A stretch of DNA of 64,000 bases from Aquiluna sp. (lineage in GTDB: Bacteria > Actinomycetota > Actinomycetes > Actinomycetales > Microbacteriaceae), in the NCBI GenBank assembly GCA_028822985.1, contig JAPKCK010000008.1, forward strand, positions 112 to 64,111, given 5' to 3'. The position numbers and the translations under genes were made by a program. Numbering within the stretch: position 1 is the stretch's first letter; each line of letters begins with the position of its first letter. Under the pieces are notes generated by a model, which was not told where the DNA came from, searched no databases, and was given only the letters and a program-made list of their open reading frames with translations. Below are positions 31,453 through 39,484 of the stretch, in pieces.

Positions 31453-33543
31453 CTAGTTTCCAGCCTTGAGCCGCAACGAATTGGCAACCACCGAAACGGA
31501 TGAGAATGCCATTGCTACGCCAGCGAGCATTGGATTCAGGAGCCCTAGAGCCGCAACCGGAATCAGAACTATGTTGTAGCCAAAAGCCCAACCTAAATTC
31601 TGCAAAATGTTTCGGTAAGTGCGCTTTCCAAGCTTGAGAGCAAAAGCAATGGCACGTGGATCATCATCCAAAATGGTGATGGCGCTTGCGGCCTGAGCCG
31701 CGTGGGCTCCAGAGCCCATGGCGATGCCAACGTCAGCCTTGGCAAGTGCTGCCACGTCGTTAATCCCGTCACCAACCATTGCAACTGGTTCGTTGTAGGC
31801 CGACAGCAATTCCAGTTTGCCCTCGGGGGAGACGTGTCCTTTGAAGTCAGTTATGCCTAGTTGTTCTGCAACTTCACGAACTCGCGCCGGGTTGTCCCCG
31901 GAGACCAGGTAGGGGCTAAAGCCAGCGGCTTTTAGCTCATCCATTGCTTGCTTGGAGGTTGGCCTTGGCTTATCGGAAAGTTCGATGAGCCCACGGGCAA
32001 CATTGTCCCAGGCCACAACAACAAGAGTGTTTGGGCCGGCATGTTCAAGAGCCTTATCTAACTCCGCTTGGTTTTGATAGCTTCCAGGCTTTTCAATCGA
32101 GACCATCACGGAATCAACTTGTCCCGTGAGTCCGTTTCCGGCGACTTCGATTACGTCGGTGGCGACAAGATCGTGGGGGTTTTCGGCTATCGCTTTAGAA
32201 ACCGGGTGCTTGCTGGTCACTGCGACCGCCGAAGCTTTTTCTAACATTGCCTCGGCGCTGACACCTGACAACCCGGTGGCTTTGATGATGGCAAGTTTGC
32301 CGTCGGTAAGTGTGCCGGTCTTGTCCAAGAAAACATGCTTGGTCTTTGCAAGCAAGCGAAGCGAGTCGGGGGTTCTTACAACCACGGCCTTTTTGGTGCC
32401 GATGCCGGTGGCAACCACCAGGCTCATCGGCACGGCAATCCCGAGAGCACATGGGCAGGCAATCACTATTACAGAGATTGCCGCCTTTATGGCGATGTCT
32501 TGTTCTCCGAGGAAGAACCATATCAAGTAGGTGGCAATGGCGATGAGAATCACCAGCGGCACAAAGATCTTTGAAATCGAATCGGTTAGCGATGCAAGTT
32601 TGGACTTCTGAGCAGTTGCTTCTCGAACTAGGTCCGCGATCTTCGCAAGTCTTGAAGAGGAGGAAATGGCAGTTACTTCCACTCTTATTTCGCCCTGCAA
32701 GTTTGTGGTTCCAGCCGTTACTAGTTCGCCGGCTTGCAAGTCCTTTGGCAGTGATTCTCCGGTGAGGGTGGAAGTGTCGATTGATGCGAATGCAGAGAGT
32801 AGTTTGCCGTCGGCCGGAATGGCCTCACCGGCTGCAACCAAAACAATCATTTGCTTGCGCAAAGAGCTAGTCGCGACATCTTCGCGCTTACCGTCAATTT
32901 CGACGGTTGCTGTTTGAGGAATGGCGCTCAGCAGCGCTCGAACTGAGTCGGTGGCGCTTTTTCTTGCCCTTACCTCTATGTATCGGCCGAGTAATACAAC
33001 CGATGGCACAACCGCAGCAGTTTCAAAGTAGGTGTGAATGTGACCGGCAAGAATCAGATAAACGCTGTAGCCATAGGCGACGCTGGAGCCAAGCGAAACA
33101 AGCGTGTCCATGGTGGCATCAAAGTGACGAAGGTTCTTTATGGCCGCTGTGTGGAAAGGCCAAGCCACATAAAAGATCACAACGGTGGCAGCAGCCCACA
33201 CTATGTAATTGCTGTATTGAAACTGGAAACCAGGAACCATGGCCAGGAGTACCGCTACTAGCGATGCTGCTCCACCGGCAATAAGACGAGGCTTCAGGGT
33301 TTTTAGTTCAGACTTTCCAGTGCCAACCCGGTAGCCGGCGCTTTCCACTGCGTCGGCAATCACCGAAGAATCCAGCGGGTTGATTAGCTGGAGGTGAGCT
33401 TTTTCGGTGGCGAAGTCTACGTAAGCACTTACTCCATCCAGCTTATTTAGATTCTTCTCAACCCTCCTGGCGCAGGCGGTGCAGGTCATTCCCTCGATTT
33501 CGATATCGAGTAATTCAACACCGACCAAGTTGGTATTAGGCAT
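31453..33543 (-). CDS. copA: P1B-type Cu(I)-exporting ATPase
   Basis: HMA MTCTAC, TGES, CPC, DKTGTLT, HP, GDGIND, YN and MAFSS Cu(I) signatures. Confidence 0.9.
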   Translation of the reverse strand: MPNTNLVGVELLDIEIEGMTCTACARRVEKNLNKLDGVSAYVDFATEKAHLQLINPLDSSVIADAVESAGYRVGTGKSELKTLKPRLIAGGAASLVAVLLAMVPGFQFQYSNYIVWAAATVVIFYVAWPFHTAAIKNLRHFDATMDTLVSLGSSVAYGYSVYLILAGHIHTYFETAAVVPSVVLLGRYIEVRARKSATDSVRALLSAIPQTATVEIDGKREDVATSSLRKQMIVLVAAGEAIPADGKLLSAFASIDTSTLTGESLPKDLQAGELVTAGTTNLQGEIRVEVTAISSSSRLAKIADLVREATAQKSKLASLTDSISKIFVPLVILIAIATYLIWFFLGEQDIAIKAAISVIVIACPCALGIAVPMSLVVATGIGTKKAVVVRTPDSLRLLAKTKHVFLDKTGTLTDGKLAIIKATGLSGVSAEAMLEKASAVAVTSKHPVSKAIAENPHDLVATDVIEVAGNGLTGQVDSVMVSIEKPGSYQNQAELDKALEHAGPNTLVVVAWDNVARGLIELSDKPRPTSKQAMDELKAAGFSPYLVSGDNPARVREVAEQLGITDFKGHVSPEGKLELLSAYNEPVAMVGDGINDVAALAKADVGIAMGSGAHAAQAASAITILDDDPRAIAFALKLGKRTYRNILQNLGWAFGYNIVLIPVAALGLLNPMLAGVAMAFSSVSVVANSLRLKAGN

Positions 33544-33757
33544 CTATTTTTGCAAATCCCACTGCCTGGTAACCGGCTTCTTCAACGGCTTCTGTGAACT
33601 GCTCATCAGTAATATCGCTCGAGGTAACCACTGCGGTGCCGCTCGAGTGATCAACCTTTACGCTCTCAACCCCTTCGAGGGTTGCGATTGCATTGGTGAC
33701 ACTCATCTCGCAGTGTCCGCAGGTCATTCCGGTAATTGTTATTTCAGTTTTTGACAT
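33536..33757 (-). CDS. copZ: Copper chaperone (HMA domain)
   Basis: GMTCGHC, AVEEAGY. Confidence 0.92.
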   Translation of the reverse strand: MSKTEITITGMTCGHCEMSVTNAIATLEGVESVKVDHSSGTAVVTSSDITDEQFTEAVEEAGYQAVGFAKIDA

Positions 33758-33791
33758 TGCTCTCCTTATTGTTAGTTGCTGATATGGATGC

Positions 33792-34124
33792 TCATGCGAA
33801 CAGCTGTGCTATCTGGCTCCAGCGTGCCTTATTCAACGAATACCAAATCCAAGTGCCTCGACGCTGTTTTTTAACTAACTCAACTTCTGCAAGTTTCTTG
33901 AGGTGGTGACTAATTGTTGGCTGGCTAAGTCCCAGCGGACCCGTTAGGTCGCAAGCGCAGCTTTCCTGGAGATCCGCCTTGGCGATCAGGGCCAAGATCT
34001 GAAGTCTGGTTGGGTCGGCAACCGCCTTCAGCAGCGCAGAAATATCCTCAGCCTTGGCTCTTGCCATCGGCTCCGCGGTGCTGGCTGGCGCGCAATCTGC
34101 GAGCGTAAGTAAATTTTTATTCAT
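33792..34124 (-). CDS. arsR: ArsR/SmtB-family metalloregulator (arsenic type)
   Basis: ADPTRLQIL, SCACDL, SQPTISHHLKKL, RRGTWIWYSL. Confidence 0.88.
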   Translation of the reverse strand: MNKNLLTLADCAPASTAEPMARAKAEDISALLKAVADPTRLQILALIAKADLQESCACDLTGPLGLSQPTISHHLKKLAEVELVKKQRRGTWIWYSLNKARWSQIAQLFA

Positions 34125-34142
34125 CTTCTATTCACCCTATAC

Positions 34143-34197
34143 ATCGATACACGTCTATAAATTCCCGAATGTCTGCTATAAATAGACAACCATCTAT
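34143..34197. promoter_or_regulatory. Two ArsR-type operator palindromes in the divergent arsR/aquaporin promoter
   Basis: ATCGAT-acac-GTCTAT (34143) and ATAGAC-aacc-ATCTAT (34182); consensus ATAGAC-N4-GTCTAT. Confidence 0.7.
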
Positions 34198-34261
34198 AAA
34201 CCAATCCCAACTCTAGTTCAGAAAGTAAGCCAACACCATCACTAAGAGCCAACGCACAACC

Positions 34262-34921
34262 GTGAGTAAGTACCTAGCCGAGTTGCTAGGAACGTTTCTT
34301 ATTGTCTTGACGGTCGCAGGTGCTGGCCACATGGTCTTTTTACTGGGAGCCGACGAAACGGTTGGACTCGCGGCAATTGCCGGAGCAGTGGGACTTGTTT
34401 TGTTTGTTGCAATCAGCATGTTCCAATCCATCAGCGGAGCTCACTTCAACCCGGTTGTAACCATTGCCTTCGGAATCAGGAAGCAAATTGACCTCAAGAC
34501 CGGGTTTGTCTATGTTGCTATGCAGCTATTAGGAGCGTTCCTGGGAGCAGTGGTCGCAAACCTAATGTTTGGTGTCTACGCAGTAGCGGCAGGAACCGTC
34601 CAACGACTAACTACTCAGACTTTTGTTGGCGAGATTGTTGCCACAGCTGGGCTACTGCTAATTGTGTTGTTATTAGTTGATCAAGAAAAGCTGTCCTTGA
34701 TAGCTCCCAGCGTCGCAGCCTGGGTTGCCGCCGGCCACTTATTCACCTCATCCACCTCTTTTGCGAACCCGGCCGTTACATTTGGTCGAGCCTTCACGGA
34801 TGCTGTTACCGGAATCAACTTCGCATCGGTGCCCGGTTTTGTAATTGGGCAACTAATTGGTGCGGGAGTCGCGCTGACTTTGTTTTATTTTTTATCCACC
34901 AAGAAGGAGCAAAATGTCTAA
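34262..34921 (+). CDS. MIP/aquaglyceroporin arsenite channel (AqpS-like)
   Basis: SGAHFNPVVT and TSSTSFANPAVT loops; coupled to arsC. Confidence 0.85.
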   Translation: MSKYLAELLGTFLIVLTVAGAGHMVFLLGADETVGLAAIAGAVGLVLFVAISMFQSISGAHFNPVVTIAFGIRKQIDLKTGFVYVAMQLLGAFLGAVVANLMFGVYAVAAGTVQRLTTQTFVGEIVATAGLLLIVLLLVDQEKLSLIAPSVAAWVAAGHLFTSSTSFANPAVTFGRAFTDAVTGINFASVPGFVIGQLIGAGVALTLFYFLSTKKEQNV

Positions 34922-35336
34922 GCCAATTTCATCGGTGATGTTTGTTTGTGTTCACAACGCCGGTCGTAGTCAGATGGCAGCTGGCTACCTTTCCCATTTG
35001 GCGGGTGACCGAGTTGAAGTCAGGTCGTCAGGAACAATGCCGGCTGACAGGGTCAATCCAGCGGTTGTCGAGGCGATGCTCGAGGAGGGCATTGACATCT
35101 CCAGCAACACCCCAAAGGTTTTGACCGATGAAGATGTCAAGGCGAGCGACTATGTGATAACTATGGGTTGCGGCGACGCTTGTCCGTTTTACCCAGGGAA
35201 AATCTACTTGGATTGGGTGCTAACAGACCCAGCCGGTCAGGGAGTCGACACCGTGCGCCCCATACGCGACGAAATCCGCGGGCTAGTCGAGAGCCTGATT
35301 GTTGAAATAGACCGAAAAGCTGGCTCCCTGACGTAA
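34914..35336 (+). CDS. arsC: Arsenate reductase (LMW-PTP fold)
   Basis: CVHNAGRSQMA, TMGCGDACP, DP..., IRDEI; its stop codon lies within the left IR of the ISL3 cassette. Confidence 0.92.
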   Translation: MSKPISSVMFVCVHNAGRSQMAAGYLSHLAGDRVEVRSSGTMPADRVNPAVVEAMLEEGIDISSNTPKVLTDEDVKASDYVITMGCGDACPFYPGKIYLDWVLTDPAGQGVDTVRPIRDEIRGLVESLIVEIDRKAGSLT

Positions 35337-35433
35337 CCGTGGGTGGTTTCACCAGCGCCTTACCGAGTGCACGCCGCTCTCCGTCTAGGTATCTAACTGA
35401 CAAGGGCAATAAGCACAGGGACGAGAAAACGGC

Positions 35434-35540
35434 GTTGAAATTCAACAGTATGGCGAACTCTGCTTGGAGTCGATAAGACCATCGTCGAAGCGATCGATCT
35501 CGACTTTGAAACAGGCGCTCTTGTCGCGTCGCTGCGTGAT
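35434..35540 (+). pseudogene. ISL3-family transposase N-terminal fragment
   Basis: NSTVWRTLLGVDKTIVEAIDLDFETGALVASLR resembles the WRxLLGV(E/D)KT..E...D...LVA.VR start of actinobacterial ISL3 transposases; start codon destroyed (in-frame TGA at 35436). Confidence 0.65.
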
Positions 35541-36647
35541 TTAGCGCCCGGCTCCCTGAGCTAGGGGGCAATCAAAAGGATCGCGGGCTTGGAGGCCCAC
35601 GCGGTTGAGGTAGCTCACGACGATGCCATAGGAGCGAACTAAGGATGTCTCCGTATAGGAAATAGAGCGCTCCTGGCAGTAGGCCTTGACCATTTTTGCG
35701 GCCTTGGCTAAGGCGGGGCGAGGCATATTGGGGAACAAGTGGTGCTCAATCTGGTAGTTGAGTCCGCCCATGGCAAAATCCATGGCAGTACCCCCGGTGA
35801 TGTTCCGACTGGTCAGCACTTGACGGCGCAGGAAGTCCACTTTGATGTCTCGTCCAATAATGGGCATGCCTTTGTGATTGGGGGCAAAAGAGGCGCCCAT
35901 GTAGACACCAAAGACGGCCAATTGGGTGACCAAGAAAACGCTTGCGACACCCCAGGGCATAAACCAATAGACAAGCGCAAAGAGGATGATATGGCGGGCG
36001 AGCAACATCGTGATCTCAGAACCGCGAGCCTCTACCTTTTCTCTGGAGAAGGCGCGCTTTAGGCCCTGGAAGTGGAGGTTTAGCCCCTCCAAGGTCAACA
36101 GAGGAAAAAAGAGCCACCCTTGACGTTTGACAATCGCGCGCTGCAAACCCGTGGTGGTAGGGGCAATGTCTTGCCTAAACACGACGACATCAGATTCAAT
36201 GTCAGGGTCTTTGCCCACCGTGTTCGGATTGGCGTGGTGTCTAGAGTGTTTATTCATCCACCAGGAGTAACTAATACCCACCACCAGGTTTGCTATGATC
36301 CGTCCCCAGATGTCATTCGAGTTGCCGCTAGCAAACACTGCCCTGTGGGCCAATTCGTGAGCAAGAAAAGCAAATTGAGTGAGCACTATGGCCAGTAGTG
36401 GCGCAAGAGCAATGCTCCACCAAGAGGTTCCCAAGAAAATCATGCCGGTGACGGTGATACCGAGAACGACAGTGAGTATCAATGCAAGCACGCCGTAGTA
36501 GCCATGGCGCCTACGCAATAAACCGGCGGACTTAACGCTCTTCATCAACCCAGCAAAGTCTGACGTGTACGGGTGCGCGGCGGGATCAATCCGAGAATGA
36601 CTGCCGTTGACTCGGTCAAGTATTGGTGAGATGGGGACTCGTCTCAT
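35541..36647 (-). CDS. Membrane-bound acyl-CoA/fatty-acid desaturase
   Basis: His boxes HELAH, HSRHH and QIEHH; DPDI; start uncertain (ATG 36647 chosen). Confidence 0.9.
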   Translation of the reverse strand: MRRVPISPILDRVNGSHSRIDPAAHPYTSDFAGLMKSVKSAGLLRRRHGYYGVLALILTVVLGITVTGMIFLGTSWWSIALAPLLAIVLTQFAFLAHELAHRAVFASGNSNDIWGRIIANLVVGISYSWWMNKHSRHHANPNTVGKDPDIESDVVVFRQDIAPTTTGLQRAIVKRQGWLFFPLLTLEGLNLHFQGLKRAFSREKVEARGSEITMLLARHIILFALVYWFMPWGVASVFLVTQLAVFGVYMGASFAPNHKGMPIIGRDIKVDFLRRQVLTSRNITGGTAMDFAMGGLNYQIEHHLFPNMPRPALAKAAKMVKAYCQERSISYTETSLVRSYGIVVSYLNRVGLQARDPFDCPLAQGAGR

Positions 36648-36848
36648 GCATCGGGGCTTCTCAGCGTAAAAGACGTTCACACCGCCTCGATGTTTCAAAG
36701 CTAGCGTCTTTTCCTGTGTTTTAGCTGGAGGAAGCAAGGGTTTCACACAGAATCCGCGAACGCAGTAAGTTCTTCGGCTGCCACAAAGCGGCACTCCCCA
36801 GCCGGATTTAACCCACGATTATGTCAGAAGAGCCAAAAAAACTTCTTA

Positions 36849-36879
36849 TTGACAAGGCAGTAAGGGTTACCTAACCTAT
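36849..36879 (+). promoter_or_regulatory. Sigma-A promoter overlapped by an IdeR/DtxR iron box
   Basis: TTGACA(36849)-N17-TAACCT(36872); TAAGGGTTACCTAACCTAT (36861-36879) matches 15/19 of TWAGGTWAGSCTWACCTWA. Confidence 0.8.
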
Positions 36880-36919
36880 TCAAGGGCGGAAAGACCGCGC
36901 ACAGATAGTTAGGAAACAC

Positions 36920-37960
36920 ATGATCAGGAAAACACTCGCTCTCGCTGCTTTAGCTTCCGTATCTCTGGCGGGTTGCTCTACGACTCCTGCGGTGGTAGAG
37001 AGCTCTCCAGCGGCTGCAGAAACTGCCACAGAGCAGCTAGCGGAAAAAACTTCAATAACGGTTTACTCGGGTCGTAAAGAGTCGCTGGTACAGGCGGTAA
37101 TCGATCAGTTCACCACGGACACTGGAATTACAGTCGAGGTTCGCTATGGCAAGAGCGCCGAGATGGCTGCTCAGCTACTGGAGGAAGGCGACAACTCGCC
37201 AGCTGACGTATTTTTCTCTCAAGATGCTGGAGCACTTGGGGCTGTGAGCAAGGCCGGGATGCTTGTCGACATGCCAAGCGAAATTCTCGGGCTTGTTCCA
37301 TCTGAGTACTCAGCGGCTGACGGAAAGTGGGTCGGCGTATCAGGCCGAGCAAGGGTAATGGTCTACAACCCTGACAAGGTTTCCGAGGTTCCGGCGTCGG
37401 TTTTCGACCTAGCGGGCCCTGAATGGCAGGGAAGAATAGGAATTGCTCCGACTAACGCTTCTTTCCAGGCATTTGTTACTGCCATGCGAGTTCTTCACGG
37501 TGACGATAAGACTCTTGAATGGCTAAAAGCCATGAAAGTCAATGCAGTCATGTACCCAAAAAACTCGGCTATTTTGCAAGCTGTTGAGGATAAGGCTGTC
37601 GACGCAGGTCTAATAAACCACTACTACTGGTTTGCCATGAGCAAAGACATTGGAGTCGAAAATATGACATCAAAGCTCGGCCAGTTTAAATCCAAGGACG
37701 TGGGAAATCTAATCAATGCTGCGGGAGTTGGAATCATTTCCGACTCGAACGCTGCTAGAAGCTTCGTTGAGTACCTGTTGAGCAAGACGGGGCAGCAGTA
37801 CTTCGTCAGCGAGACCAGCGAGTACCCGCTAATCCCTGGCGTTCTGGCCGGTGTCGAGTTGACGCCGATGGATCAGATTCCAGCTCCAGAGGTTGACCTC
37901 AGCGGTCTAGATGATCTAGACACAACCCTAGCTATGATTCGCGAGGCTGGTCTGATATAG
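36920..37960 (+). CDS. Fe3+ ABC transporter substrate-binding lipoprotein (FutA/AfuA-like)
   Basis: Lipobox LAGC, VYSGR, SPADVF, GRARV, APTNASFQAF, NHYY. Confidence 0.92.
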   Translation: MIRKTLALAALASVSLAGCSTTPAVVESSPAAAETATEQLAEKTSITVYSGRKESLVQAVIDQFTTDTGITVEVRYGKSAEMAAQLLEEGDNSPADVFFSQDAGALGAVSKAGMLVDMPSEILGLVPSEYSAADGKWVGVSGRARVMVYNPDKVSEVPASVFDLAGPEWQGRIGIAPTNASFQAFVTAMRVLHGDDKTLEWLKAMKVNAVMYPKNSAILQAVEDKAVDAGLINHYYWFAMSKDIGVENMTSKLGQFKSKDVGNLINAAGVGIISDSNAARSFVEYLLSKTGQQYFVSETSEYPLIPGVLAGVELTPMDQIPAPEVDLSGLDDLDTTLAMIREAGLI

Positions 37961-37969
37961 TCCAAGACT

Positions 37970-39484
37970 ATGCGCAAGCCTCCGAAAATCATAGTCGTCA
38001 TCGGCGTCAGTGCTACCTTGCTGGCCGTTCTTCCGGTTGTCTACTTGGGACTTCGTCTCTTCGAAGGCTTCGATAGGGCGCTAGCCGAATTGCTTAGATT
38101 TAGAACCCTCGAGTTACTGGGTAACACTGGGTTACTGGTTCTGGCAGTCTCGGTTAGCGCCCTTTTAGTTGGGTTTTCCCAAGCTTGGCTCACAACGCGA
38201 TCTACTGTGAAATTTGCGTCATCTTTCGCAGTATTGGCTGCCCTGCCGCTTGCCATTCCTTCCTACGTAATGGCGCTGGGCTACATGTCACTATTTCCAA
38301 AGTTCTCGGGTTTTTTTGCATCTTGGCTGGTTCTTACTCTGGCCACCAGTCCTTATGTCTTCTTGGGAGTTACGGCAGCCTTGGTCCGTATCGACACAGC
38401 AACCGATGAGGTTGCCAGGACCCTTGGTCTTGGCAGGTTTAAAGTTCTAACGCGAGTCACATGGCCGCAGGTTAGGCCTGCGGCAACTGCGTCGGTTTTG
38501 TTAGTTGCGCTCTACGTGTTGGGTGAATTTGGAGCCATAGCTCTGCTCCGATATGACACATTTACTAGGGCGATCTATAACGCGTACCAAGGTTCTTTCG
38601 ATAGAACCTCGGCCGCTGCGCTGGCACTTGTTTTGTTGCTGATTACGCTCCTAATTATCTGGCTCGAAAGACGGTATCGCGGTCTTTATCTCGCTAATAC
38701 GAAGGCGCTCGGCAAGAGACTTCGAGTGGATTTGGGCTCTTGGTCTTGGGTCGCTATGGCGGGACTCACTTCGATTGCAGTCTTCGGTGTTGGCGTTCCA
38801 ATCGTTAGTCTTTTCGTTTGGAGCGTCCAAGGAAGCGCGAGTCTGGACTTACCAATGCTGCTCGATGCACTTTGGGGCTCGGTTCGGCTAGCGGGTTTAT
38901 CTGGTCTCTTCATAGGTTTCTTCGCCATAGCAATCGCACTTTGGGCCGTTAGATATCGAACCAGGCTAGGTGCGTGGATCGAAACTTTAAGTTGGGCTAC
39001 CCACGCGCTCCCGGCCGTTGTAGTGGGTTTGGCGCTCGTGTTTTTTGGTGCGAACATCACCCCATGGATTTACCAGACGACTTGGATGCTGGTCATTGCC
39101 TACCTCATCTTGTTTCTGCCGAATGCCTTGGCTGCTATCAGCACTCCAATTGCTCAAGTTCCCAAAGATCTGGAGGATGTCTCCCAGTCACTTGGGGTTC
39201 CAGCGAACCGAACCTTAGTCAAGGTGGTTTTACCAATCGCCATTCCGGGGATTGTTGCAGGGGTTGGCTTGGTTGCGCTAACCGTGCTAAAAGAATTACC
39301 CGCAACCTTGTTACTGCGACCAACTGAGGCCAACACTTTGGCAACCAGGCTTTGGGATGCAACGGAGGATCTGGCGTACTCGCAAGCGGCACCGTATGCG
39401 CTCCTGCTAGTCATTGTTGCCGGGTTGCCCGCACTCGTGTTGAATTCTCAGGCCAGGAAAGCACTATCGGAGGTTCGGGGCTAA
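37970..39484 (+). CDS. Fe3+ ABC transporter permease
   Basis: Duplicated permease; PLAIPSYV, EVARTLG, KELPATL.LRP. Confidence 0.92.
   Translation: MRKPPKIIVVIGVSATLLAVLPVVYLGLRLFEGFDRALAELLRFRTLELLGNTGLLVLAVSVSALLVGFSQAWLTTRSTVKFASSFAVLAALPLAIPSYVMALGYMSLFPKFSGFFASWLVLTLATSPYVFLGVTAALVRIDTATDEVARTLGLGRFKVLTRVTWPQVRPAATASVLLVALYVLGEFGAIALLRYDTFTRAIYNAYQGSFDRTSAAALALVLLLITLLIIWLERRYRGLYLANTKALGKRLRVDLGSWSWVAMAGLTSIAVFGVGVPIVSLFVWSVQGSASLDLPMLLDALWGSVRLAGLSGLFIGFFAIAIALWAVRYRTRLGAWIETLSWATHALPAVVVGLALVFFGANITPWIYQTTWMLVIAYLILFLPNALAAISTPIAQVPKDLEDVSQSLGVPANRTLVKVVLPIAIPGIVAGVGLVALTVLKELPATLLLRPTEANTLATRLWDATEDLAYSQAAPYALLLVIVAGLPALVLNSQARKALSEVRG

What the first reader, a model, noticed from the sequence alone, without database searches (positions are those of the whole stretch)
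35322..36834. ISL3 shell whose transposase has been replaced by a fatty-acid desaturase
Seen: 24-bp inverted ends starting GGCTC (20/24 identical) 1.5 kb apart; a transposase N-terminal remnant (35439-35540); a C-terminal remnant FGCHKAALPSRI-stop (36773-36811, compare ..GGHRPxLPGR in actinobacterial ISL3) abutting the right IR; and an intact desaturase on the opposite strand between them. Inference: a non-autonomous cargo cassette that could be mobilised in trans. It could spread membrane-fluidity adaptation in a family that mainly uses branched fatty acids. No clean target duplication was found and the left end is eroded, so it may be old.
Basis: partly seen in the sequence, partly recalled or inferred. 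Interest (0 to 1): 0.7.

Follow-up and report, generated by a model that had tools for sequence, protein, structure and literature searches.

The report
Desaturase gene inside a dead ISL3 shell
In this marine Candidatus Aquiluna genome, an old ISL3 insertion sequence lost its transposase gene to a chromosomal fragment carrying a working fatty-acid desaturase. The shell now sits decaying at one fixed site in several related species, so it is a neat but ordinary fossil rather than an active gene-spreading cassette.

Summary
Window 35322-36834 has both ends of an ISL3 element. They match an intact 1450-bp ISL3 on Frondihabitans plasmids: left end 73%, E 8e-21; right end 82%, E 5e-11. The transposase N- and C-terminal remnants and the IRs are all there.

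An empty arsC-futA site in three relatives defines an ISL3-typical 8-bp target duplication, AAAAAACT. The interior (35537-36773) is a 1.24-kb chromosomal fragment. It holds the last 12 codons of an isochorismatase-family gene, the intergenic region and a complete desaturase. It is 87% identical to the native locus beside the fatty-acid synthesis genes in a related lineage. Both joints lie at short microhomologies.

The "mobilisable cassette" reading is not supported:
- The same cassette, with the same junctions, sits at the same site in four Aquiluna genomes.
- The IS parts decay at the neutral rate, with mutated IR tips and independent deletions.
- No copy was found at any other site, and no intact relative of the transposase was found.

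The desaturase is under purifying selection (dN/dS 0.06-0.15), is detected in metatranscriptomes, and is the only close copy in a complete isolate genome. It is a family-typical Microbacteriaceae gene. This is a new member of a known kind (a MIC-like IS carcass), of low to moderate interest.

The parts
34914..35336 (+). arsC (LMW-PTP-type arsenate reductase). Its last codons and stop are now supplied by the IS left inverted repeat: ...EIDRK-AGSLT* in place of the ancestral ...EIDQK-TSH*.
   Evidence: PF01451 E 6e-20. The empty-site relatives L009 and L013 end with a TGA inside the futA -35 TTGACA. This exact protein occurs on 23 contigs, all with the same arrangement.
35314..35321 (.). Left copy of the 8-bp target-site duplication: GAAAAGCT, ancestral AAAAAACT.
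   Evidence: Comparison of four occupied sites with three empty sites that hold a single AAAAAACT.
35322..35344 (+). Left inverted repeat (IRL), GGCTCCCTGACGTAACCGTGGGT. It has a 1-nt deletion and 2 substitutions relative to the Frondihabitans IRL.
35322..35536 (+). ISL3 left-end remnant: IRL, the 5' untranslated region and the first ~34 transposase codons. The start codon is lost.
   Evidence: 73% identity to IS positions 9-184, E 8e-21. The local alignment reaches 35536.
35445..35537 (+). Transposase N-terminal remnant, TVWRTLLGVDKTIVEAIDLDFETGALVASLR.
   Evidence: tblastn gives 71% identity to residues 5-35 of the Frondihabitans ISL3 transposase, E 7e-8.
35518..35536 (.). Left junction. IS-type and donor-type homology overlap imperfectly here, with only short patches of microhomology.
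   Evidence: IS homology ends at 35536. Homology to the native locus (L001 and L113) begins at 35518-35527.
35541..36647 (-). Intact membrane fatty-acid (acyl-CoA/acyl-lipid) desaturase, 368 aa, with the native C-terminus ...CPLAQGAGR*.
   Evidence: PF00487 E 2e-41. 90% amino-acid identity to native-locus P0001. The C-terminus is the same as in L001. dN/dS is 0.06-0.15. Metatranscriptome contigs match at 99-100%.
36648..36742 (-). Native upstream (promoter/5' leader) region carried in with the desaturase. It contains a conserved inverted repeat, CTGTGT..ACACAG.
   Evidence: Collinear with L001 and L113. Strongly conserved among the four cassette copies.
36743..36778 (-). Remnant of the last 12 codons (including the stop) of the isochorismatase-family gene that precedes the desaturase at the native locus: AAEELTAFADSV*.
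   Evidence: Aligns to the 3' end of the L001 and L113 isochorismatase gene...TAEVLATFADSV*.
36774..36778 (.). Right junction: a 5-nt overlap, TCGGC, shared by donor-type and IS-type sequence. The two proxy sequences share 7 nt, TCGGCGG.
36774..36834 (+). ISL3 right-end remnant. It holds the transposase C-terminal 12 codons plus stop (FGCHKAALPSRI*, 36773-36811) and IRR (36811-36834).
   Evidence: 82% identity to IS positions 1390-1450, E 5e-11. Sequence comparison.
36836..36843 (.). Right copy of the target-site duplication, AAAAAACT, preceded by one extra A at 36835.

Best explanation
An ISL3 element transposed into the last codons of arsC, 15 bp upstream of the futA promoter. This happened in an ancestor of part of the marine Candidatus Aquiluna group and made an 8-bp duplication, AAAAAACT.

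Inferred: most likely in place, the IS interior (about IS positions 218-1389, nearly the whole transposase gene) was then replaced by a 1.24-kb chromosomal fragment. The fragment was copied from the native desaturase locus beside the fatty-acid-synthesis cluster, either of the same genome or of a closely related Aquiluna. It carries the tail of an isochorismatase-family gene, the desaturase's own upstream region, the complete desaturase and about 14-20 bp of 3' flank. It was joined to the IS on both sides by illegitimate recombination at short microhomologies.

Shown: since then the structure has not moved by transposition. It is inherited at this one site and reshuffled among Aquiluna lineages by ordinary homologous recombination through the flanks. 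The desaturase is kept by purifying selection, is transcribed from its own upstream region, and is the only close copy in at least one complete genome. The IS ends and transposase remnants are neutral debris that is being eroded.

In function, the locus is simply the cell's membrane lipid desaturase gene at a new address.
For: **IS identity and ends.**

**Insertion by transposition.**
- Empty sites in L009, L013 and the distant L014 hold one AAAAAACT.
- Occupied sites in the window, L010, L011 and L012 hold two degenerate copies.
- The arsC tail is replaced by IRL-encoded residues.

**Interior is native chromosomal DNA.**
- Window 35527-36769 is 87% identical to L001:3515-4758, and similarly matches L113.
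- There the order is FabH-ACP-FabF-TetR-MMPL-ABC2-DUF3145-DUF1684-isochorismatase-desaturase-...-DEAD helicase, with no ISL3 nearby.

**Junctions.** They lie at TCGGC and at a patchy 19-nt overlap.

**One origin.** The junctions are identical in four genomes.

**No mobility seen.**
- No ISL3 ends appear in about 100 other desaturase loci.
- No excision joint appears in four metagenomes.

**Neutral decay.** IR tips are mutated and there are two independent deletions. Left-end identity is 75%, against about 78% expected from dS.

**Selection and expression.** dN/dS is 0.06-0.15. Metatranscriptome contigs match at 99-100% and extend 30 nt upstream of the ATG.

**Single copy.** Only one contig of the Aquiluna sp. 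Uisw_065 isolate assembly matches at 80% or more.

**Homologous recombination.**
- The left flank, the cassette and the right flank give different relationships.
- Empty-site genomes are the nearest relatives of occupied ones on one side.
- The window and L011 are 98-100% identical across 35200-36600, about 91% to the left, and 64-76% in futA/futB.
Against: - In-place replacement was not separated from "assembled elsewhere, then transposed in as a unit". Both leave the same duplication.
- The native locus of a cassette-bearing genome could not be read. Loss of the native copy therefore rests on the single-contig result for one isolate, at a threshold of 80% nucleotide identity. A more divergent paralogue is not excluded.
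- The donor and the IS are represented by proxies (L001/L113 and the Frondihabitans IS), so the exact junction microhomology is approximate.
- L011 is a co-assembled MAG. Part of its mosaic pattern could be an assembly chimera.
- The RNA evidence comes from low-depth metatranscriptome contigs, which may include DNA carry-over.
Confidence: 0.65

Rival explanations
1. A full-length ISL3 in the same cell then transposed it in trans into the arsC-futA site, and it may still be mobilisable.
For: - Both IRs keep the GGCTC tip in the window, and a typical 8-bp duplication flanks the whole unit.
- MICs and ISL3 elements with passenger genes are known (PMC4133298; ISPst2 in PMC6305408).
Against: - It needs the same two illegitimate joins plus one extra transposition step.
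- No copy was found at any other site among about 100 desaturase loci, four genomes and 23 contigs.
- No cognate transposase was found in the window, the isolate assembly or the protein collection.
- The IRs decay neutrally and differently in each lineage. The window's IRL carries a 1-nt deletion between the tip and the inner part.
- IS elements are almost absent from streamlined Microbacteriaceae (PMC6106888).
Confidence: 0.2
2. Two full ISL3 copies once bracketed the isochorismatase-desaturase region as a composite transposon. The composite moved to arsC-futA. Two later internal deletions removed the inner parts of both copies.
For: The outer ends are a correct IRL and IRR in the right orientation.
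Against: - It needs at least five events.
- Each deletion would have to start inside a transposase gene and end in unique DNA.
- Native loci show no ISL3 remains.
- All four lineages share both junctions, so both deletions would have had to occur before they split.
Confidence: 0.05
3. The inverted ends and peptide remnants are chance similarities, and the desaturase is simply native at this site.
For: Pfam and NCBIfam gave no hit for the short remnant peptides.
Against: - Both ends align to an intact ISL3 at E 8e-21 and 5e-11.
- Empty sites exist in three relatives.
- The isochorismatase gene tail shows that the fragment comes from another locus.
Confidence: 0.01

Closest known systems
Mobile insertion cassettes (MICs), e.g. 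MIC231 of the Bacillus cereus group. IS ends flank passenger genes and no transposase is present. The concept is cited in PMC4133298; MIC231 itself is from my own knowledge.
   Same: - Two IS-type inverted repeats bracket a non-transposase gene.
- There is no transposase.
- A target duplication of the length typical for the parent IS flanks the unit.
   Different: - MICs are defined by trans-mobilisation and usually occur in several copies or sites. This one was seen at a single site only.
- Its ends are decaying and no cognate transposase was detected.
- It still holds coding remnants of both ends of the transposase gene. It is therefore visibly a gutted IS rather than a minimal IR-cargo-IR unit.
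- The parent family is ISL3, not IS4/IS231.
ISL3-family elements with passenger genes (transporter IS), e.g. ISPst2 with a permease and an ArsR regulator (PMC6305408).
   Same: ISL3 ends enclose genes that have nothing to do with transposition.
   Different: ISPst2 keeps its transposase and is multicopy and active. Here the transposase was replaced, not accompanied.
Typical actinobacterial ISL3 elements: the 1450-bp element on Frondihabitans sp. PAMC 28766 plasmids 1 and 3, and ISArsp7 (1451 bp, 24-bp IRs GGCTCTTCGCGG..., 8-bp DR; PMC6305408).
   Same: - 24-bp IRs starting GGCTC(TT).
- An 8-bp duplication.
- A transposase stop codon overlapping the inner edge of IRR.
- Overall length 1513 bp against about 1450 bp.
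- 73-82% nucleotide identity at the ends.
   Different: About 1170 bp of interior (IS positions ~218-1389) is missing. It is replaced by 1237 bp of host DNA on the opposite strand.
Native Microbacteriaceae acyl-CoA/acyl-lipid desaturase locus next to the FAS-II genes (L113, L099).
   Same: Same gene, 90% amino-acid identity to P0001, with the same upstream region and the same C-terminus.
   Different: The genomic address differs: arsC-futA instead of DUF1684-(isochorismatase or heliorhodopsin)-desaturase-DEAD helicase.

Membership tests
ISL3 insertion sequence family | Terminal inverted repeats of about 15-39 bp, typically starting GGCTCTT | tested here: met
   IRL is 35322-35344 and IRR is 36811-36834. 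They agree at 20 of 24 columns and align to the IRs of an intact ISL3. Compare the ISArsp7 IRs in PMC6305408.
ISL3 insertion sequence family | 8-bp target-site duplication | tested here: met
   GAAAAGCT and AAAAAACT flank the element. A single AAAAAACT sits in the empty sites of L013 and L014, and L009 has the same A-run. The copies are degenerate, 6 of 8 in the window.
ISL3 insertion sequence family | Encodes a DDE transposase with the ISL3 domains (PF01610, PF13542, PF14690; NF033550) | tested here: not met
   Only 31 N-terminal and 12 C-terminal codons remain, 71% identical to a transposase that does hit these models. The remnants themselves hit no model. This is a derivative of an ISL3, not a functional member.
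Mobile insertion cassette (MIC) | IS-type IRs flanking passenger gene(s), with no transposase | tested here: met
Mobile insertion cassette (MIC) | Evidence of mobility: copies at different sites, or polymorphism created by transposition | tested here: not met
   One site only, across four genomes, 23 contigs and about 100 desaturase loci. No excision joints. Presence or absence is explained by one insertion plus homologous recombination.
Mobile insertion cassette (MIC) | A cognate full-length IS available in trans | tested here: inconclusive
   None in the 64-kb window. No extra copy of the ends in the Uisw_065 isolate assembly at 80% identity or more. The remnant peptide finds no close protein. 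The rest of the window's own genome could not be searched.
Membrane fatty-acid desaturase (PF00487) | FA_desaturase domain with three histidine boxes | tested here: met
   PF00487 at 142.8 bits, above the cut-off of 29.7. HELAH, HSRHH and QIEHH are read in the translation. Regiospecificity was not determined: NCBIfam equivalogs score far below their cut-offs and there is no PDB relative.
Composite transposon | Two complete IS copies bracketing the cargo | tested here: not met
   There is a single left end and a single right end, with no internal IRs.

The most novel reading that the evidence does not exclude
The unit really is, or recently was, an ISL3-derived mobile insertion cassette that moved as a whole. 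More generally, dead IS copies in streamlined planktonic genomes would serve as neutral landing pads. Through them, essential genes lost from their native locus could be re-acquired from relatives by illegitimate recombination, and then passed between species by flank-mediated homologous recombination.
Probability: 0.12. Interest if true: 0.5.

Novelty: new member of a known kind. Interest (0 to 1): 0.3.

Why it matters
This is a clean, datable example of how a gene changes address in a very small, IS-poor genome.
- An IS provided a harmless place to receive DNA.
- Illegitimate recombination filled it.
- Selection then kept the cargo while the IS rotted.

It also shows that IS-like ends around a useful gene do not by themselves indicate current mobility. 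For Aquiluna biology, it marks the arsC-futA junction as a presence/absence polymorphism for the only close copy of this lipid desaturase. That may relate to temperature or salinity niches, since these genomes occur in sea-ice, brine and seawater metagenomes. It does not change what is known about ISL3 or about desaturases.

Tried and rejected
1. **Antisense artefact idea.** After seeing the isochorismatase tail in L001, I suspected that the "C-terminal transposase remnant" was only the antisense of a longer isochorismatase remnant (GECRFV... against GEFATV...). I rejected this once the Frondihabitans IS right end aligned base-for-base through 36774-36834. The isochorismatase remnant stops at about 36778.
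2. **Family searches on the remnants.** Pfam and NCBIfam gave no hit for the remnant peptides because they are too short.
3. **Protein-collection search with the remnants.** The 46-aa N+C concatenation found no candidate.
4. **Reading the native locus of a cassette-bearing genome.**
   - L019 was too divergent to lay.
   - Look-ups of DUF1684 homologues gave native loci with a desaturase (L099, L113) and without one (L100-L104). None could be tied to a cassette-bearing genome.
5. **Metagenome scan with the desaturase.** It returned mostly distant homologues at 52-64% identity and no further cassette copies.
6. **Consensus sigma-70 promoter scan.** No site was found, which is uninformative for an actinobacterium.
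7. **PDB sequence search.** No relative was found.
8. **Literature.** No paper links Aquiluna, this desaturase and an IS.
Full report
**What is in the sequence.** The region 35322-36834 lies between arsC (34914-35336, PF01451) and a FutA-like iron ABC-transporter binding protein (36920-37960).
- On the minus strand sits a complete 368-aa membrane fatty-acid desaturase, 35541-36647 (PF00487, E 2e-41). The three histidine boxes HELAH, HSRHH and QIEHH are present.
- The longer ORF that the finder lists, with a GTG at 36794, is an artefact running into the IS right end.
- The inverted ends are real. The ungapped core is 17 nt at 88%. With one indel they give 20 of 24 matching positions, GGCTC-CCTGACGTAACCGTGGGT against GGCTCTTCTGACATAATCGTGGGT.

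**Are the ends ISL3?** Yes.
- A tblastn of the N-terminal remnant and a blastn of the left end against plasmids both hit an element on Frondihabitans sp. PAMC 28766 (Microbacteriaceae) plasmids 1 and 3.
- That element is 1450 bp and has 24-bp IRs. Its 437-aa transposase hits PF01610 (238 bits), PF13542, PF14690 and NF033550 (265 bits, cut-off 180).
- Window 35329-35503 aligns to its positions 9-184 (73%, E 8e-21). Window 36774-36834 aligns to its positions 1390-1450 (82%, E 5e-11).
- The peptide TVWRTLLGVDKTIVEAIDLDFETGALVASLR is 71% identical to transposase residues 5-35.
- The C-terminal FGCHKAALPSRI* corresponds to GGHKPVLPGRI*. In both, the stop codon overlaps the inner edge of IRR.
- There is no other ISL3 sequence in the 64-kb window.

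**Was it an insertion?** Yes.
- A scan of species-representative genomes with FutA identified the organism as Candidatus Aquiluna and returned syntenic loci.
- L009, L013 and the much more distant L014 have an uninterrupted arsC-futA junction, for example GAAATAGACC AAAAAACT TCTCATTGACAA. There arsC ends ...EIDQKTSH*, with its stop inside the futA -35.
- The window, L010 (Aquiluna sp. Uisw_065, complete genome), L011 (a MAG) and L012 (Ca. Aquiluna sp. IMCC13023) carry the element at exactly this point.
- Comparing the four occupied sites gives an ancestral 8-bp duplication, AAAAAACT. The window has GAAAAGCT on the left and A+AAAAAACT on the right.
- Eight bp is the ISL3 norm; compare ISArsp7 in PMC6305408.
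- The arsC tail is now read from IRL (...EIDRK-AGSLT*).

**What replaced the transposase?**
- The closest desaturases (P0001 at 90%, P0002 at 80% amino-acid identity) lie in a different, conserved context. That context is the fatty-acid synthesis genes (FabD-FabH-ACP-FabF), DUF3145, DUF1684, then either a heliorhodopsin or an isochorismatase-family gene, then the desaturase, then a DEAD-box helicase a little further on.
- Window 35527-36769 is 87% identical to L001:3515-4758.
- The homology includes the desaturase's upstream region and the last 12 codons of the isochorismatase gene. On the window's minus strand this reads AAEELTAFADSV*, against TAEVLATFADSV* in L001.
- The cargo is therefore a 1.24-kb piece of the native locus of an L001/L113-like Aquiluna.
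- The desaturase's C-terminus is untouched.
- On the right, donor-type and IS-type homology overlap by 5 nt, TCGGC. The two proxy sequences share 7 nt, TCGGCGG.
- On the left they overlap imperfectly across 35518-35536.
- This is the signature of illegitimate, microhomology-guided joining. It is not transposase action or homologous recombination.
- No ISL3 sequence occurs in any native locus examined.

**Has it moved since?** I found no sign of it.
- All four genomes share both internal junctions, so the capture happened once, before they diverged.
- The window's arsC, with its IS-derived tail, is on 23 contigs from several metagenomes, always in the same arrangement.
- Eighty further desaturase loci from metagenomes, plus the native loci, have no ISL3 ends.
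- Four metagenomes holding the window's sequence show no precise-excision joint.
- The IS parts are eroding. L010's IRL reads GACTCGCTGAAGTAACCGAGGGCG. L011's tip reads AGCCC. L012 lacks window positions 35369-35522. A variant in run X10 lacks 35313-35449.
- The window and L010 left ends are 75% identical. That is close to the ~78% expected for neutral sites at the desaturase's dS of 0.26.
- The protein collection holds nothing sharing even three 5-residue words with the remnants.
- IS elements are nearly absent from streamlined Microbacteriaceae (PMC6106888).

**Is the cargo in use?**
- dN/dS among cassette copies and against the native L001 gene is 0.06-0.15.
- Metatranscriptome contigs match the gene at 99-100%. 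One of them runs 30 nt upstream of the ATG. In run X74 nothing was laid on 35322-35495 of the IS left end. Depth is low and DNA carry-over is possible.
- In the contigs of the isolate run X23, which is 100% identical to L010, only one contig matches the desaturase or the IS ends at 80% identity or more. The cassette copy is therefore the only close copy in that genome.
- Some related lineages (L100-L104) have the heliorhodopsin-DUF1684 locus without any desaturase. I could not tie them to cassette-bearing genomes.

**How is presence or absence distributed?** Not by clade.
- On the left flank, L012 (occupied) is closest to L009 (empty), at dS 0.29.
- On the right flank, the window groups with L009 (empty), at dS 0.60 against 1.2-1.4 to the others. 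L012 groups with L013 (empty), at dS 0.30.
- The window and L011 are 98-100% identical over 35200-36600, about 91% to the left, and 64-76% in futA/futB.
- One insertion followed by frequent homologous recombination through the flanks explains this.
- The right breakpoint of the window/L011 tract lies inside the cassette, so that exchange was between two lineages that both already had it.
- L011 is a co-assembled MAG, so some of the mosaic could be an assembly artefact.

**Mechanism: what is shown and what is inferred.**
- Shown: ISL3 ancestry of both ends.
- Shown: insertion with an 8-bp duplication.
- Shown: cargo from the native desaturase locus, with the neighbouring gene's tail.
- Shown: a single origin of the capture.
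- Shown: neutral decay of the IS parts.
- Shown: purifying selection on the cargo.
- Shown: a single close copy in one isolate.
- Inferred: the replacement occurred in place, in an IS already sitting at arsC-futA. This is one step fewer than assembly elsewhere followed by trans-mobilisation, and no other site was seen.
- Inferred: the donor DNA came either from the same chromosome or from a related Aquiluna.
- Inferred: the native copy was lost.

**Comparison with known systems.**
- Structurally this is what ISfinder-type nomenclature calls a mobile insertion cassette, that is, IS ends plus passenger with no transposase (PMC4133298).
- ISL3 elements with passengers are also known, for example ISPst2 (PMC6305408).
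- It meets the structural definition but fails the mobility criterion in every test I could run.
- It is best described as a gutted, fossil ISL3 that now merely houses a relocated housekeeping-type gene. That makes it a new member of a known kind.

**Verdict.** Interest is low to moderate, 0.3.

Noticed in passing
window 36849-36880: The futA promoter has a TTGACA at 36849-36854 and a palindromic DtxR/IdeR-type iron box, (T)AAGGGTTACCTAACCTA, at about 36861-36878. The box is conserved in all relatives, whether the site is occupied or empty. The IS landed 15 bp upstream of the -35 and left this promoter intact.
   Followed up: partly
window 36800-39200 (futA, futB): There are two deeply divergent allele classes of the iron-transporter genes among otherwise ~90% identical Aquiluna genomes. 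The window and L009 form one class. L010, L011, L012 and L013 form the other. Identity between classes is 64-76%, with dS 1.2-1.4 against 0.25-0.5 in neighbouring genes. This is a recombination mosaic, possibly under diversifying selection.
   Followed up: partly
window 36700-36750 (minus strand, upstream of the desaturase): A conserved inverted repeat, TTCTGTGTGAAACC...AAAACACAGGAA, is retained from the native locus. It is more conserved than its surroundings in the four cassette copies and in L001. It could be an operator for a lipid regulator or the old isochorismatase terminator.
   Followed up: no
L099, L113, L100-L104 (native desaturase locus in relatives): The slot between DUF1684 and the desaturase is variable. 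It holds a heliorhodopsin in some lineages and an isochorismatase-family hydrolase in others. In L100-L104 the desaturase and DEAD-box helicase are both absent from the locus.
   Followed up: partly
window 35313-35449, seen in run X10 (salt-lake metagenome): A co-occurring strain variant carries an independent 137-bp deletion inside the IS left end. It is separate from the 154-bp deletion in IMCC13023 (L012).
   Followed up: partly
window 31453-35336: The insertion site sits at the edge of a small metal-handling cluster: a CopA-type P-type ATPase, a CopZ-like HMA protein, an ArsR regulator, an aquaglyceroporin and ArsC.
   Followed up: no
L008:1145-2454 (Frondihabitans plasmid 3 copy of the reference ISL3): This copy is 99.8% identical to the plasmid 1 copy. 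Its transposase reads in two overlapping tblastn pieces, which implies a frameshift, and the record annotates no gene there. The same transposase also hits an NCBIfam model named 'DesA/ISL3 alpha bundle tail' (NF049919). The window's desaturase did not hit that model in the NCBIfam scan, so I take the shared name to be unrelated.
   Followed up: no
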